The notes: generated by a model not told the origin, from the letters alone. 64,000 nt of DNA from Lytechinus pictus (GCF_037042905.1 NC_087247.1:11418148-11482147); one strand, 5' to 3'. Positions 11,100 through 26,679 are shown, numbered from the stretch's first letter. Translations and numbers: made by a program.

Positions 11100-11440
11100 T
11101 CTATTAAGTGCCTACCAGTGAAAAGCAAATAAAAAATTCTTCACACTCTAGAGAACAGGGAAGCATGGGTCTCGGTGAAAGAAATTAAAGCACCAGGTTG
11201 GGAACAAGATGCATGCTCCCCAGGGAGTGTGGATGTTTGTGCATCTAGGAAATCTTGTATTGGTGTATTCAGCACCTACATGTACCATTGAAAAGTAAAG
11301 ATAAAAAATTAACAAGCTTCAGTAATTTTCAGCTCGGATTAAAGTGCAACTGCCATTCATGGCCATGCTGCGCAACCTATGCAACTCGATTGCCACCGGG
11401 ATCAGTTAAGATTAAAGTCTAACATTTGATTAATATGTCT
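11100..11440 (+). repeat. Degenerate tandem duplicate of the exon 6 3' end, intron, and exon 7 5' end
   Basis: 11150-11290 aligns to 10960-11100 (gcaggtctcgctgaagggcaataaagcaccag... versus gcatgggtctcggtgaaagaaattaaagcaccag...). 11320-11400 (aactgccattcatggccatgctgcgcaacctatgcaactcgattgccaccgggatcagttaag) copies the exon 7 start. Confidence 0.8.
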
Positions 11441-11451
11441 TTGCATCTTAG

Positions 11452-11652
11452 ACAACAAGAAACTGCCGTTCATGGCCATGCTGCGCAACCTGCGCAACAT
11501 GATCGCTGCCGGGATCAGTGAGAAGCACCACAAGTGGGTCCTCTACAAGCTGACCGACCGAGGCTCGGTGGTCTACAGCAAGCAGTTTCCTTTCCGGTTC
11601 TTCTCGGCTTACGAGGTGCTTCAGAGCATGGAGCGTGAACTGGAGAAAGCAG
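11452..11652 (+). CDS. TEP1: TEP1-like exon 7 (TROVE core)
   Basis: DNKKLPFMAMLRNLRNMIAAGISEKHHKWVLYKLTDRGSVVYSKQFPFRFFSAYEVLQSMERELEKA. Human: ENGKLPFMAMLRNLCNLLRVGISSRHHELILQRL..SRQFPFRFLNAHDA. Confidence 0.9.
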
Positions 11653-11879
11653 GTGAAGATTCAATTTTTAAGGGTCTTGAAAAGTAGTAGTCACTTGCCG
11701 CCCTTTCACACGGTACCAAAATTGTAATTTGAATGATGACTCCATCGAAAAATAATTCTCAAGACAAATTTTTAGCATGTGCCAAACCAAACTAGAATCA
11801 CGATCGCTAATCACAATCATGAATTCAAATTCTGTTCCGGATGTGAATTCCAGTTAAGTTTCACTCAAATTACGGGACA

Positions 11880-12420
11880 AATTTTACGTCTGAAAGGGTT
11901 GACCTCCAAAACATCTTTTGAGGGGCGATGCTTACGTGACCTTTCAAGCACTTCCGTAGATAATACATTGTCATGCAAAACATCTTTTGAGGGGCGGTGC
12001 TTACGTGACCTTTCAAGCACTTCCGTAGATAATGCATTGTCATGCACTCATCGTAGTTTCTTTTTTGCGATGTAGTGCTTTGATTGGGTTTGATTGGCAA
12101 GTCACCAAGGACACAATACCGCATTCGCTCAGGAATTCGAATTCAAATCACAGTTTTCGAGTGAACGTGTGTATGGTACAATGATTCTAAAGACGAATTG
12201 CAATCATTGATTACGTGACCTTTCAAGCACTTCCGTAGATAATACATTGTCATGCACTCATCGTAGTTTCTTTTTTGCGATGTAGTGCTTTGATCGGGTT
12301 TGATTGGCAAGTCACCAAGGACACAATACCGTATTCGCTCAGGAATTCAAATTCAAATCACAGTTTTCGAGTGAACGTGTGTATGGTACAATGATTCTAA
12401 AGACGAATTGCAATCATCAT
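11880..12420. repeat. Intronic tandem duplication (64-bp and ~215-bp units)
   Basis: caaaacatcttttgaggggcg.tgcttacgtgacctttcaagcacttccgtagataat.cattgtcatg occurs 3 times. cactcatcgtag...gaattgcaatcat occurs twice. Confidence 0.85.
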
Positions 12421-12780
12421 CACAATGATGATTTAAGATTCTCGTGTGTAAAGGCCCTTGGTCTAACACGACTTTAATTGGTCTGATTTCCAACTCATCT
12501 GACACCGTAGTAGTTGAATCCATTGGCCTGTATTCTGAACTCTAGTTCAACTTCTACTATGGTCCGAAAGTCTGCTCAAATTGTGAAGAGCTATAGATTT
12601 CAAAATTTTTATTTTAGTTTAGGTTCACTGGGTTCTTACAAAATAACTTTGTCCTCTTAGTTTTTGTCATTTTTGAATGACTTTTTGGTCTATTACCATA
12701 TTTGACAGACTAGATTTATAACATTTGTTTGAAGCAATTTAGTGAAGTTCACATAGATATACGACTGTCTAAAATGACTT

Positions 12781-13205
12781 ACGGATCCCATCTTACAAAG
12801 AGATGCCCTTGATCCTCTCAACCTCAATTATATGGGAATCCATCGTATTTTTCCAACAGGAAATTTTGAACAATGTCATTTGTCGACAAAGAGGAGCACA
12901 TTGGATTGTCAAGAAAACATTTGAATACATGAGTAGGCTTCCTATCTAGAAAACATTTTGAGCAAACATGCATTTCAGATGCTGGCGTTGCTGACTTCCT
13001 TCCTTGATCAGGGGCCAATTTCATAAAGAGTTAAAACTGATGTAACTTTGCCATATTGGCAACTACCATGGCAACAGGGCTCAGCAGCCAATCATAATCA
13101 AGTTTACCATGGCAGTTGCCATAATGGCAAAGTTACAACAGTTGTAACTCTTTATGAAACGGACCCCAGATTAATCACAACTCTTTCTAAGACGAAGCCC
13201 ATATT
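12781..13205. mobile_element. MITE, same TIR family as 9832-10088, carrying a ccatggcaa...ttgccatgg palindromic core
   Basis: TIRs ATCCCATCTTACAAAGAG... at 12786 and the reverse complement at ~13160-13205. The core 13040-13150 recurs at 1440-1565 and 39560-39640. Confidence 0.65.
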
Positions 13206-13383
13206 AATGTGCCTTAACACTCGCAATATCAACATCGTTAATTGTCATTTTAAGTACTGTACTATGAGAGGAGAGTGTCTTGGGTAAAGAAATTGCTGTA
13301 ATTTGTCTTAAAAACATAGTTCCAAGGTGATGAGTGGTATTCAGAAGGGGATTATTCTTATGAAATATTTATCTGTTTTGTAG

Positions 13384-13501
13384 ATAAACTGAAAGAGCAG
13401 TTGGCCAGTGGTATACGGCCCCCTCAACCGAGAGGCAAGCGGGCCAGAAAGGAAGACCAGGTACCCAAGTGGAAGCGTGCCAAGATGGAGAAGAAACGCA
13501 G
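13384..13501 (+). CDS. TEP1: TEP1-like exon 8
   Basis: DKLKEQLASGIRPPQPRGKRARKEDQVPKWKRAKMEKKR. Phase-consistent (1 in, 2 out), tag| and AG|gttggt. Basic linker, shorter than the human segment. Confidence 0.65.
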
Positions 13502-24333: not shown

Positions 24334-24510
24334 ACACCATACGGTACGCGTCTTCATCTCCTCCACGTTCCGCGACATGCACGGCGAGCGCGACCTCTTG
24401 ACCCGGTTCGTGTTCCCGGAATTGCGGGCAAAGGCGCGCACCCGCTTTGTCAACCTGTACGAGGTCGATCTGAGGTGGGGAGTCAGTGAGGAACAGACAA
24501 GACACAGCAG
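24334..24510 (+). CDS. TEP1: TEP1-like exon 15 (DUF4062-like segment preceding NACHT)
   Basis: [58 protein letters not shown]. Human: [59 protein letters not shown]. Confidence 0.95.
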
Positions 24511-24894
24511 GTATCATTAACATTTTTTTTTTTTCAGTCATGATAATAGAAAAGATGCAATCGATTGTATGTGATATCTGTTATTATAAGTGTGTGGGGG
24601 TGTTGCAAGAAAATATTTGCGATCAAATTCAAATTTCCAATGCAAATTTACAAGTAGTAGATCAATGTCAACTTAAGCAAACCAAATATGCGAAACTGAC
24701 TGTCAATCAGTTAAAAATTTGCTATGAAATGCTTGGCTTTCAATCAATTTTGGAGTTTCTTGTAATGCCCAATATGGTAGACAGGTATAAAGAGATAAAA
24801 TAAATTTTAATTATTGATTGTATTTTTTTGTGTATCTAATATTAAGTTATATTCAATTTGAATAAACGTTGTCTGTCCGCTCCTGTTTCATCAG

Positions 24895-25137
24895 CTCTGT
24901 GGAGATCTGCTTACGGGAAGCCAATCGGTGCGATCTCTTCATCGGCATCCTGGGAGATCGCTATGGTTACGTTCCAAACGACTACCCCGACATGAGCGAC
25001 ATTGAATACTTCAACTGGCTGTCGGCTCATCCCAAATCGCGTTCCATCACCGAGTTGGAGATGTACCACAAGGCTCTCAGAAACTCGGAGAGGAGCAACA
25101 AAGCCTTCTTCTTCATCAGAAACTCAGAATTCATCAA
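24895..25137 (+). CDS. TEP1: TEP1-like exon 16 (DUF4062-like)
   Basis: SVEICLREANRCDLFIGILGDRYGYVPNDY...ITELEMYHKALRNSERSNKAFFFIRNSEFIK. Human: [30 protein letters not shown]...VTEMEVMQFL. Confidence 0.9.
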
Positions 25138-25950
25138 GTATGTTTTCGATAAGAAGTTTTGTATATCTCATAGAAATAGGATATTTGGTAAAAAGACTCA
25201 GAGAGGAACAACTAGGGATTATTTTTCATATCCAATACTCCATCAAGTATGTTTCGACAAGAAACTGTTGATTTTCTCCTAGAATTCGTTTGTTTACTAA
25301 GTCTCTTTTATTATCAGGGTAAAAATTTGAAAAACACAGGATTTCAGTTCTGAATTTATTTTAAAAAATCAATTCTTCTTTCATACATTGATTTCTTTCA
25401 TTGCATTATGTGTAATTGAGAAAGATTTTCCTTGCAACAATTGTCTGACAAGTCAGATTTGACCTGTAACTTATTAAAAAAAAAATTATTATGGGTTCAC
25501 TTGCTACAACACTTGTTCTAGAATTGCATCCATATATTTTTTTTGCCTTGCTATACATGTTATCAGGAATGGGAATGAAGTTGTTATGCATTTTTCTTCA
25601 GCAAGCCTATTATAAAGTATACTTGTTACTAATAACAAAAATGCAAGTTAAGTCTGTCACTGGACTTTTTTTGACCTAAAAGTATTTCATTCAAAGCAGA
25701 AAGCTTTTTTTTAAGCACCAACAGCTATTACTTTAGTATTGAATTGTATACTGCCCCAGACCTTTCTATTTGAAAGATGAATACTCAAGAGTTCTTAATT
25801 TGAAAAAAATGATAACATGTGCAATAAAGGGCACCGTATCTGATCAACAGAACATTTTGAATTTTCAGAAAGAATTGATCAGTGAAAAGTGATATAATGG
25901 TCAGGACATTTTCGTAAGATGAGAATTTTGGAATGATAATTCAATGTCCG

Positions 25951-26095
25951 GTGTGTTGGTTCAGTTGGTAGAGCGTCTGTCATACAACCAGGAGCTTGGG
26001 AGGTCAAACCCCAGCCGCGTCAGACCAAAAGACGTTAAAAGATGGGAGTTACTGCTACCCTGTTTAGCATTCAACGATTAAAGGGATAGATCCTT
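25951..26095 (+). mobile_element. tRNA-derived SINE, family B
   Basis: GGTGTGTTGGTTCAGTTGGTAGAGCGTCTG...GGTCAAACCCCAGCCGCGTC tRNA-like head plus tail. Confidence 0.6.
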
Positions 26096-26314
26096 GTCGA
26101 TCTGGTGCTCCACAGCAGCTGTCGGGCCCACGATCAATTGGGCAAAACACATTTTTATTTCATGTCTATTTCGAAAAATAAAAAATGGATTTTTATGTCA
26201 TTTATATTACTGAACCCTTAAGCTTTAGACAGGTATTAATGTTATCTCACTCATGTCGTTATACTGTTGCAAGATGTGACATTGATAAGTTGTGATCTTT
26301 GATATGATTTTCAG

Positions 26315-26428
26315 GAATGTCCCGAACAAGTTGAGAAGTCAGTTTGTCGATGAGAGTACCCAGAGGAAGGAGAGGCTCGCCAGCTTGAAGGAAACCATCC
26401 GTACCAGTGGCTGTGAAGTCTTTGACGG
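26315..26428 (+). CDS. TEP1: TEP1-like exon 17
   Basis: NVPNKLRSQFVDESTQRKERLASLKETIRTSGCEVFDG. Human: [41 protein letters not shown]. Confidence 0.85.
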
Positions 26429-26439
26429 GTAAGAACACT

Positions 26440-26679
26440 TGTAGGAATTGATTTGATGGACAGGAGTATTCCAAACAATTTGAAAAATTAGTTTGTTTTC
26501 TGTCAATGTAGCCATGATTTCTTTCTATTTTCTGTTCAGTAACACTTGCCATAATGGATTGATATCTCTCTATTTTCAGTCTAGTTATCCATACTATAAT
26601 GGTGTTTATTTCTTAACTCTCTTCTGTCCAGATTAACCCATGCCATAAATGTTTTGATATCTTACTCTTTTCTGTCCAG
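26440..26679 (+). repeat. Partial duplicates of the exon 17 start (26455-26500) and of the exon 18 acceptor (26560-26679, two extra copies of tctgtccag|ttacccatgcc)
   Basis: caggagtattccaaacaatttgaaaaattagtttg versus caggaatgtcccgaacaagttgagaagtcagtttg. ttctgtccagattaacccatgccataaatg versus tctgtccagttacccatgccattttgg. Confidence 0.75.

What the first reader, a model, noticed from the sequence alone, without database searches (positions are those of the whole stretch)
11100..26679. Recurrent micro-duplications of exon edges create decoy splice sites along the same gene
Besides the P-loop array, four more places carry a diverged tandem copy of an exon boundary a few tens to hundreds of bp from the real one. 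11150-11400 copies the exon 6 3' end through the exon 7 5' end. 22795-22890 copies the acceptor and first 30 nt of exon 14, with a stop. 26455-26500 copies the exon 17 start just after its donor. 26560-26679 has three successive tctgtccag|(a)ttacccatgcc acceptors before exon 18. Five independent junction-spanning duplications in one gene is far more than chance. It suggests a locus-specific process such as replication slippage or unequal exchange, or possibly selection for splice decoys.
Basis: seen in the sequence. Interest (0 to 1): 0.6.

Follow-up and report, generated by a model that had tools for sequence, protein, structure and literature searches.

The report
Tandem duplications straddling TEP1 splice junctions
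The exon-edge copies are real small tandem duplications in the introns of an invertebrate TEP1 gene, but this gene is full of such duplications and the number hitting splice junctions is only marginally above chance, so it is a new example of a known phenomenon.

Summary
All four listed places and the P-loop array are genuine diverged direct copies of splice junctions: local alignment scores are 24-51, against about 10 ± 1.4 for unrelated intron. I found one more, at the exon 16 donor.

The gene is a TEP1 orthologue on the + strand, with 46 exons modelled.

The claim of "far more than chance" is weak.
- 17% of intronic 60-nt tiles in this gene also have a nearby direct copy.
- A uniform census finds 27 local duplication events in 54 kb: 19 of complex sequence, 7 spanning a junction and 12 purely intronic.
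- Junctions occur about every 600 nt and units are 48-181 nt. Random placement therefore predicts 3.4 junction-spanning events, giving P(≥7)=0.04 and P(≥5)=0.25.

Best explanation: ordinary microhomology-mediated tandem duplication. An 8-nt GCTAGCAA flanks the P-loop array. A partial-exon-plus-intron duplication leaves one intact exon, so the spare copy becomes intron and decays.

The same architecture is known in human F7, CBS, LMNB2, PDGF and 6-16.

One point is unexplained: all 7 events lie in exons 6-19 (post hoc P≈0.002). Decoy usage cannot be tested without RNA data.

The parts
10964..11144 (+). Parent unit A: last 70 nt of exon 6 (exon 6 = 10876-11033), the authentic donor ATTG|gtaagc, and the first ~111 nt of intron 6
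   Evidence: Exon confirmed by TROVE homologues with ...LI|D(N/H)KKLPF and a continuous Pfam TROVE match. Alignment.
11145..11310 (+). Copy A': diverged tandem copy of unit A, now inside intron 6. The donor GT is removed by an 8+3 nt deletion.
   Evidence: 68% identity over 180 columns, score 61.5. 140-nt probe z = 17.8. The repeat finder D2, D4 and D5.
11294..11406 (+). Copy B': diverged copy of the 3' end of intron 6 plus the first 68 nt of exon 7. An acceptor-like ttttcag| gives an exon start at 11333. The copy is followed directly by TAA at 11407-11409.
   Evidence: BLAST 86% over 59 nt, E=1e-12. Alignment. PWM score 1.3 against 1.9 for the real site.
11404..11519 (+). Parent unit B: last ~48 nt of intron 6, the authentic acceptor (exon 7 starts at 11452) and the first 68 nt of exon 7
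22758..22882 (+). Copy C': tandem copy of 94 nt of intron 13 plus the first 26-27 nt of exon 14. The decoy acceptor is intact (exon-like start 22859). In-frame TAG at 22889-22891.
   Evidence: 87% identity over 128 columns, E=4e-37. Decoy PWM score is 2.0; the real 22977 site did not reach the scan's listing threshold of 0.
22883..23003 (+). Parent unit C with the authentic acceptor of exon 14 (exon 14 = 22977-23053)
   Evidence: Frame-consistent join of exons 13-14-15..
25083..25186 (+). Parent unit for the exon 16 donor: last 55 nt of exon 16 (24895-25137), the donor CAA|gtatgt, and ~49 nt of intron 16
25196..25295 (+). The decoy donor at 25246|25247 has the same core CAA|gtatgt. Using it would add 109 nt and shift the frame.
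   Evidence: 71% identity over 94 columns, score 37. z = 11.3. Equal PWM score of 1.7.
26299..26347 (+). Parent unit D: last 16 nt of intron 16, the authentic acceptor and the first 33 nt of exon 17 (26315-26428)
26448..26496 (+). Copy D' of the exon 17 acceptor region, lying 20 nt after the exon 17 donor at an offset of 149 nt. The polypyrimidine tract is eroded (gatttgatggacag|). It may be the remnant of a whole-exon duplication.
   Evidence: 37/49 identical, score 25 against null 10.3 ± 1.2 with maximum 12. The rest of the putative unit is not alignable.
26493..26693 (+). Array E: 4-5 units of about 47 nt, each with a polypyrimidine tract, an AG and TTAcCCATGCCAT. The last unit carries the authentic exon 18 acceptor (exon 18 starts at 26680). 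Decoy exon starts are at 26540, 26580 and 26632. The 26632 site is in frame (+48 nt) with no stop.
   Evidence: the repeat finder D1-D3. Unit alignment 47-70% identity. PWM scores 4.8, 4.7 and 5.6 against 4.8 for the real site. Junction probe score 25, z = 11.6. TRF does not call the array.
27446..28471 (+). P-loop array: six units of 150-178 nt. Each unit has the last 122 nt of exon 19 (27385-27567, encoding ...GKQGCGKTALL), a donor and 29-57 nt of intron. The real donor is at 27567. Identical decoy donors CTG|gtaagat lie at 27740, 27913, 28091 and 28266, and a weak one at 28442. Copies c2 and c3 keep the reading frame, c4 is frameshifted, and c5 and c6 carry stops.
   Evidence: TRF period 173, 5.8 copies, 86% matches. 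Unit alignment and identity matrix. Donor scores. Exon part 84-95% and intron part 74-88% identical to c1.
28472..28479 (+). GCTAGCAA immediately after the last array unit, identical to GCTAGCAA at 27447-27454 at the start of the first unit. This is microhomology at the duplication borders.
   Evidence: Read directly from the sequence printed

Best explanation
The window carries an invertebrate orthologue of TEP1 (telomerase/vault-associated protein 1, with TROVE, DUF4062-NACHT and WD40 propeller domains). Its introns have repeatedly undergone small tandem duplications with units of about 48-300 nt.

The likely mechanism is slipped-strand mispairing or unequal exchange between short direct repeats. 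Because a splice junction occurs about every 600 nt, a fair fraction of such duplications straddle one.

A duplication that covers part of an exon plus part of the adjoining intron is tolerated. One complete exon with its authentic site survives. This is the upstream copy when a donor is duplicated and the downstream copy when an acceptor is duplicated. The spare partial copy ends up inside the intron. It lengthens the intron, starts as a perfect pseudo splice site and then decays.

Shown here:
- the copies, their tandem geometry and the microhomology;
- the background rate of duplication in the gene;
- the decay of some copies;
- that only the annotated sites give the conserved protein.

Inferred, not shown:
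- that the decoys are mostly silent, with the upstream-most donor chosen by exon definition or 5'-to-3' scanning as in human F7;
- that any decoy use gives NMD substrates. The exception is the in-frame +48 nt acceptor at 26632.
For: Gene identity:
- TROVE matches as one stretch, E=1e-108, and the TEP1-specific propeller families PF25047 and PF25048 match.
- Fragment homologues are named telomerase protein component 1.

Copies are real: junction probes give z = 11-26 and 140-nt probes z = 5-47. BLAST, TRF and the repeat finder agree.

Tandem geometry and two separate events in intron 6 follow from the order E6b-I5'-E6b'-I5''-I3'-E7a'-I3'-E7a.

Microhomology: GCTAGCAA lies at both borders of the P-loop array. 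Units c1/c3 resemble each other, as do c2/c4/c6, which implies later duplication of a two-unit block.

Background:
- 17% of 637 intronic tiles have a nearby copy scoring ≥20, against 5 of 91 junction probes.
- There are 27 events in 54 kb; 12 complex-sequence events are purely intronic and 7 span a junction.
- The placement model expects 3.4, with P(≥7)=0.039 and P(≥5)=0.25.

Decay of copies:
- the decoy donor is deleted in A';
- the polypyrimidine tract is lost in D';
- TAA follows B' and TAG lies in C';
- c4 has a frameshift, and c5 and c6 have stops.

Authentic sites: a bacterial DUF4062-NACHT homologue aligns colinearly through VFDG|YP and GKTALL|A, E=6e-47.

Precedent: minisatellites whose first monomer spans an exon-intron boundary occur in F7, CBS, LMNB2, PDGF and 6-16. 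Usually only the authentic or upstream-most donors are used (PMC1557585).
Against: - The count of junction-spanning events (7) is about twice the neutral expectation (3.4), nominal P=0.04.
- All seven lie within 27 consecutive junctions of 91, from exon 6 to exon 19 (permutation P=0.002, post hoc). None of the 54 junctions of exons 20-46 has one.
- Among old copies (≤76% identity), junction-spanning ones outnumber purely intronic ones.
- Several decoys remain as strong as the authentic sites by PWM: four donors, three acceptors and the exon 14 decoy. Splice-site competition experiments would predict a cost from these.
- The exon-derived part of P-loop copy c3 is 95% identical to the real exon, while its intron part is only 74% identical. 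This needs gene conversion or constraint.
- No RNA, population or orthologous-intron data were available.
Confidence: 0.75

Rival explanations
1. A regional mutational hot spot. The 11-28 kb part of the gene (exons 6-19) has, or had, an elevated rate of small tandem duplication, for example through replication fork stalling, a recombination hot spot or one complex template-switching episode. This would produce a local excess of junction hits.
For: All 7 junction events fall in exons 6-19, P=0.002. About 26% of intron in this segment lies in local duplicates, against about 13% downstream; I estimated these figures by hand from the runs. Introns 6 and 17 each carry two events.
Against: The window was chosen after seeing the data. 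Identities range from 68% to 87%, so the events are not simultaneous. Purely intronic arrays also occur throughout 30-59 kb.
Confidence: 0.12
2. Selected splice decoys. The pseudo-junctions are kept because they titrate spliceosome components or divert a fraction of transcripts into unproductive, NMD-targeted isoforms. This would tune TEP1 output, like decoy exons or regulated unproductive splicing.
For: Many decoy sites are intact and as strong as the authentic ones. There is a marginal excess over neutral placement. Copy c3 has an unusually well preserved exon part. The acceptor at 26632 would give an in-frame, stop-free +16 aa isoform.
Against: Older copies have lost their sites or reading frames: A' donor deleted, D' tract eroded, c4-c6 broken. 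No conservation evidence exists. The +16 aa insert would split the VFDG|YP motif, which is conserved even in a bacterial homologue. Intact sites are expected anyway in the younger copies.
Confidence: 0.06
3. Assembly artefact. Diverged haplotypes of a very heterozygous genome, or mis-joined reads, were stitched in tandem and created false duplications.
For: Marine-invertebrate assemblies are prone to false tandem duplication (general knowledge). Copy C' is 87% identical and exactly adjacent to its parent.
Against: Most copies are 68-79% identical and carry many indels, far beyond allelic divergence. There are no Ns in the window. The arrays have internal higher-order structure and unit-specific G-run expansions.
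Confidence: 0.04
4. Chance or low-complexity resemblance. The similarities are chance matches between AT-rich, pyrimidine-rich splice regions.
For: TRF at default or low threshold does not call array E or copy D'. Units of E are only 47-70% identical.
Against: The same probes against unrelated intron windows never exceeded 20, while the real neighbourhoods scored 24-51. DUST scores of the aligned segments are 0.5-1.0, which is not low complexity.
Confidence: 0.03

Closest known systems
Human F7 intron 7 37-bp VNTR, and the similar minisatellites in CBS intron 13, LMNB2, PDGF intron 4 and interferon-inducible 6-16 (PMC1557585)
   Same: It is a tandem array whose first monomer spans the exon-intron boundary, so the authentic donor is followed by several sequence-identical 5' pseudo-sites. 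This is the architecture of the P-loop array (one real donor, four identical decoys and one weak decoy) and, with a single extra copy, of the exon 16 donor duplication.
   Different: The units here are longer (150-178 nt against 37-100 nt) and carry 122 nt of coding sequence including the NACHT P-loop. Copies are 71-86% identical to one another rather than near-identical. Polymorphism and splice-site usage are unknown. The same gene also has the mirror-image case at acceptors (exons 7, 14, 17, 18), for which I did not find a described series.
Intron gain or extension by tandem genomic duplication (Rogers model; Drosophila near-intron pairs PMC2891723; potato RdRp PMC4974935)
   Same: A tandem duplication that includes exon sequence is neutralised by splicing, and the spare copy becomes intronic.
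   Different: Here the duplications straddle pre-existing junctions and lengthen existing introns. About 63% of intron 6, 74% of intron 17 and 55% of intron 19 derive from duplication. No new intron is created from an exonic AG|GT. The spliced junctions are ATTG|ACAA and GACGG|TTAC, not AG|GT.
Tandem exon duplication giving mutually exclusive or cassette exons
   Same: Local tandem duplication of exon-containing DNA within a gene.
   Different: The copies are partial exons with only one splice site. They carry stops or frameshifts and cannot substitute for the parent exon. Only D' might descend from a whole-exon duplication (unit 149 nt, exon 114 nt), and it is degenerate.

Membership tests
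Minisatellite whose terminal monomer spans an exon-intron boundary (F7 IVS7 type) | Head-to-tail array of at least 3 similar units | tested here: met
   P-loop array: TRF period 173, 5.8 copies and a six-unit alignment. Array E: 4-5 units of about 47 nt, but TRF does not call it. A, B, C, the exon 16 donor copy and D are simple two-copy duplications, not arrays.
Minisatellite whose terminal monomer spans an exon-intron boundary (F7 IVS7 type) | First (donor) or last (acceptor) unit contains the authentic splice junction | tested here: met
   Unit c1 contains the exon 19 donor at 27567. The last unit of E contains the exon 18 acceptor at 26680. The junctions were placed by a frame-consistent model and by a colinear homologue alignment.
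Minisatellite whose terminal monomer spans an exon-intron boundary (F7 IVS7 type) | Splice-site consensus reiterated in the intron | tested here: met
   Four decoy donors have the identical 9-mer CTG|GTAAGA, PWM 5.0 each. Decoy acceptors score 4.7-5.6 against 4.8 for the real site.
Minisatellite whose terminal monomer spans an exon-intron boundary (F7 IVS7 type) | Pseudo-sites normally silent (authentic site chosen) and copy number polymorphic | not testable with these tools
   No RNA-seq or population data. Exact-sequence look-ups of window ORFs found no other contigs of this species.
Intron created by tandem duplication of an exonic AG|GT segment (Rogers model) | Spliced exon-exon junction reads AG|GT, and the two intron ends are the two halves of one duplicated exonic segment | tested here: not met
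   The junctions are ATTG|ACAA (intron 6), GACGG|TTAC (intron 17) and TACTG|GCCT (intron 19). The copies include pre-existing intron sequence.
Intron created by tandem duplication of an exonic AG|GT segment (Rogers model) | Intron absent from related lineages | tested here: inconclusive
   ORFs from other taxa run out of exon 6 into an intron after ...LIG (P0027, P0066, P0071, P0073). Others read straight through LI-D-KKLPF on large genomic contigs (P0001, P0004, P0010). The taxa are unknown.
Mutually exclusive or tandemly duplicated exons | Complete exon copies with both splice sites, the same phase and an open frame | tested here: not met
   The copies are truncated to one junction. TAA follows B', TAG lies in C', and c4-c6 have a frameshift or stops.
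TEP1 (telomerase protein component 1) orthologue | TROVE domain, DUF4062/NACHT NTPase and TEP1-type WD40 propellers in one polypeptide | tested here: met
   Pfam TROVE E=1e-108; Beta-prop_TEP1_2nd 196 bits against a cut-off of 89; TEP1_C 85 bits against 32. Exons 16-20 align to a DUF4062+NACHT protein at E=6e-47. The C-terminus lies beyond my model.

The most novel reading that the evidence does not exclude
The seven pseudo-junctions confined to exons 6-19 may not be neutral debris. They could mark a locus-specific process. One option is a duplication hot spot targeted to splice junctions or short introns. Another is selection for arrays of competing splice sites that throttle TEP1 expression through unproductive splicing, or that yield a +16 aa isoform from the in-frame acceptor at 26632.
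Probability: 0.1. Interest if true: 0.55.

Novelty: new member of a known kind. Interest (0 to 1): 0.28.

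Why it matters
It is a compact natural example of how introns grow: about 55-74% of introns 6, 17 and 19 derive from duplication. It also shows how reservoirs of perfect cryptic splice sites arise.

One gene offers five identical donors in a row and four near-equivalent acceptors in a row. That would be a useful natural test of splice-site choice rules, such as scanning or exon definition, outside mammals.

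It does not currently point to a new mechanism. It is also a caution for gene predictors: my own exon-chaining run first spliced the P-loop copies in as 32-nt mini-exons.

Tried and rejected
- Dating by orthologous introns failed. The closest relatives found (ENA ERZ26222911, contigs L001 and L002) are only about 84% identical in exons and their introns are unalignable. The contigs are 4-5x assemblies, one of them scrambled, and exon 7 is not within 10 kb.
- Exact look-ups of two window ORFs found no other contigs of the same species.
- A protein search with exons 16-20 gave only 4 hits: one Saccoglossus TEP1-like fragment, two named prokaryotic DUF4062 proteins and one unnamed DUF4062/NACHT protein I take to be bacterial. 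None was a close relative.
- Two metagenome scans, one with a protein pattern and one with a degenerate P-loop DNA pattern, found nothing.
The exon model is my own dynamic-programming chain with manual fixes and may miss small exons between 44.9 and 51.4 kb.
- I tested whether exon-derived halves of the copies are systematically better preserved than intron-derived halves, which would bias detection. This was true for the P-loop copies and for B, but not for A or the exon 16 donor copy, so I do not rely on it.
- A single duplication spanning exon 6 to exon 7 was rejected, because the observed order of pieces requires two events.
- The weak junction hits at don27, acc34, acc37, acc38 and don30 turned out to be microsatellite, purely intronic or insignificant.

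Full report
**What the locus is.** The window is AT-rich eukaryotic DNA (GC about 37%). From about 4872 to beyond 59 kb on the + strand it carries a multi-exon gene.
- Exons 6-7 translate to a TROVE-domain sequence. Its database relatives are fragments, some of which the sources name telomerase protein component 1.
- No full-length homologue could be retrieved, so I built an exon chain by dynamic programming (codon log-odds plus splice PWMs) and corrected it by hand.
- The 46-exon draft of 2486 aa gives one continuous TROVE match (residues 232-629, E=1e-108). It also passes the TEP1-specific propeller families PF25047 and PF25048.
- Exons 16-20 align colinearly with a bacterial DUF4062-NACHT protein through the joins ...VFDG|YP... 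and ...GKTALL|A... (E=6e-47).
Coordinates: exon 6 10876-11033, exon 7 11452-11652, exon 14 22977-23053, exon 16 24895-25137, exon 17 26315-26428, exon 18 26680-26800, exon 19 27385-27567.

**Checking the observation.** Every claimed copy is present.
- In intron 6, 11145-11310 is a 68%-identical copy of 10964-11138, the exon 6 tail with its donor and the intron start.
- Also in intron 6, 11294-11406 copies 11404-11519, the intron end with the acceptor and the exon 7 head. The core is 86% identical over 59 nt.
- The order of pieces requires two separate tandem duplications, not one.
- 22758-22884 is an 87% copy of 22883-23003. It has an intact decoy acceptor, and an in-frame TAG follows at 22889-22891.
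- 26448-26496 copies the exon 17 acceptor region at 76%.
- 26493-26693 is a 4-5 unit array with a period of about 47. Its last unit carries the exon 18 acceptor.
- The P-loop array is 27446-28471: six units, each made of the last 122 nt of exon 19, the donor and 29-57 nt of intron.

I tested significance with 60-nt probes across all 91 junctions, scored against ±700 nt. The null was the same probe against 40 unrelated windows. The real scores were 24, 35, 25, 25 and 51, against a null of about 10 ± 1.4. 140-nt probes raised the exon 6 donor to z = 17.8. No junction of exons 20-46 has such a copy. The few weak hits there are microsatellites or purely intronic repeats.

- The gene's introns are full of local direct duplications. 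Of 637 intronic 60-nt tiles, 17% have a nearby copy scoring ≥20, against 5 of 91 junction probes.
- A uniform census with 90-nt probes, a downstream search of up to 900 nt and DUST annotation finds 27 events in 54 kb. Of these, 19 are complex sequence: 7 junction-spanning and 12 purely intronic. The intronic ones include arrays at 11899-12417, 15468-16847, 21131-21716, 34159-34972, 40001-40198, 43523-43780 and 48285-48527.
- Junctions occur about every 600 nt. A unit of 110-180 nt dropped at random into viable positions therefore straddles exactly one junction 16-23% of the time.
- Summed over 18 events, the expectation is 3.4. This gives P(≥7)=0.039, P(≥6)=0.11 and P(≥5)=0.25.
- What is not explained is position. 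All seven lie in exons 6-19 (permutation P=0.002, but post hoc).

**Mechanism.**
- The P-loop array is bounded by the same 8-mer, GCTAGCAA, at 27447-27454 in the exon and at 28472-28479 just after the last unit. This is the classic footprint of slippage or unequal exchange between short direct repeats.
- Units c1/c3 share diagnostic variants, as do c2/c4/c6, which implies later duplication of a two-unit block.
- A duplication of part of an exon plus adjoining intron leaves one intact exon. For donors this is the upstream copy, and for acceptors the downstream copy. The spare copy lies within the intron.
- This is why such events survive, while wholly exonic or whole-exon duplications would mostly be purged.
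- About 63% of intron 6, 74% of intron 17 and 55% of intron 19 are such duplicated material. I calculated these fractions from the coordinates. The ancestral introns 6 and 17 were therefore only about 150 nt and 66 nt long.

**State of the decoys.** Older copies have decayed.
- The donor GT is deleted in A'.
- The polypyrimidine tract is lost in D'.
- TAA follows B'.
- c4 is frameshifted, and c5 and c6 carry stops.

Younger or array copies retain sites as strong as the authentic ones.
- Four donors are identical to the real CTG|GTAAGAT.
- The decoy donor at 25246 is equal to the exon 16 donor.
- Acceptors giving exon starts at 26540, 26580 and 26632 score 4.7-5.6, against 4.8 for the real site.
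- The exon 14 decoy scores 2.0; the real 22977 site did not reach the scan's listing threshold of 0.

Use of a decoy donor in the P-loop array would add 173 nt, and the read-through frame meets a stop at 27622-27624. Use of 25246 adds 109 nt. Only the acceptor at 26632 is in frame (+48 nt, no stop). It would, however, split the conserved VFDG|YP motif.

How the authentic sites win is inferred, not shown. By analogy with F7 it would be exon definition and 5'-to-3' scanning that favours the upstream-most donor.

**Comparison with what is known.** The introduction of Borensztajn et al. 2006 (PMC1557585) lists human genes with a minisatellite whose first monomer spans an exon-intron boundary: F7 IVS7 (37 bp, 5-9 repeats), CBS IVS13, LMNB2 (100-bp monomer), PDGF intron 4 (81 bp) and 6-16.
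- In these genes the donor is reiterated in the intron, and only the authentic or the first few pseudo-sites are used.
- The P-loop array and the exon 16 donor duplication are the same architecture.
- The acceptor-side cases are the mirror image.
- The intron-gain-by-tandem-duplication model (PMC2891723, PMC4974935) is related but is not met here. The spliced junctions are not AG|GT, and the copies include pre-existing intron.

**Verdict.** Its claims of excess, locus specificity and selection are not supported by the within-gene baseline. This is a new example, unusually dense within one gene, of a known phenomenon. The clustering in exons 6-19 and the well-preserved exon part of copy c3 (95% against 74% for its intron part) remain unexplained. 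They justify a modest residual probability for a hot spot or a functional reading.

Noticed in passing
window 33774-33868: Exon 23 (MKLLVSKREANLPLFLKLACEELRVFGVFEE) appears to end at a GC donor, GAAGAG|gcaagt. Only this join keeps the frame into exon 24 (VSTRLKAM...). It is a probable GC-AG intron.
   Followed up: partly
window 33973-35375: Inverted repeats of 147 nt (33973-34118 and 35229-35375, 83% identical) flank the 163-192 nt tandem array at 34159-34972 in intron 23. It looks like a foldback or MITE-like element with internal satellite repeats. This may be one source of the roughly 150-190 nt arrays seen in other introns.
   Followed up: no
window 38723-38954: A (GGT/GAT/ATG)n microsatellite begins immediately at the exon 27 donor (38723|38724) and runs about 230 nt into the intron. 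It is open in one frame (ORF 38639-38908).
   Followed up: no
window 11066 and 26632: There are two in-frame alternative sites. A donor GAGATG|gtgtgc lies 33 nt downstream of the exon 6 donor, and my first gene-model runs preferred it. The acceptor giving an exon start at 26632 lies 48 nt upstream of exon 18. Either could give a stop-free insertion isoform.
   Followed up: partly
window 49211-49427 and 50959-51174; 50855-50951 and 51242-51339; 32169-32282; 35574-35726; 63299-63532: These are dispersed repeat copies with open frames, such as ...SNPSHG(I/V)ISF.. and ..TPWLG(I/F)(E/K)PT... They are probably SINE or tRNA-derived elements. One of them was wrongly taken up as an exon by the first gene-model runs.
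   Followed up: no
proteins P0001, P0004, P0010 versus P0027, P0066, P0071, P0073: In some other taxa, genomic ORFs read straight through the exon 6/7 join (…LIDHKKLPFMAML…) on contigs of 60-858 kb. In others the ORF leaves exon 6 into an intron after …LIG. Intron 6 is therefore present in some lineages and absent in others.
   Followed up: partly
L001 249-405; L002 7864-8005: The nearest relative sample (ENA ERZ26222911) has two divergent versions of exon 6. One has a 12-nt deletion plus an insertion, and L002 looks rearranged. No exon 7 lies within 10 kb in L001. This could be a paralogue, a pseudogene or a low-coverage assembly error.
   Followed up: partly
window 13004-13174; 49676-49983; 45621-45827 and 46007-46213: There are large imperfect palindromes or inverted repeats in introns, 72-79% identical over 171-312 nt. 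They are probably foldback or MITE-type insertions.
   Followed up: no
window 27590-27612, 27765-27785, 27935-27960: Each unit of the P-loop array carries a G-run of 10-14 G about 30-45 nt downstream of its donor. The run length differs between units. G-runs near 5' splice sites are known intronic splicing enhancers, so the runs may matter for donor choice.
   Followed up: no
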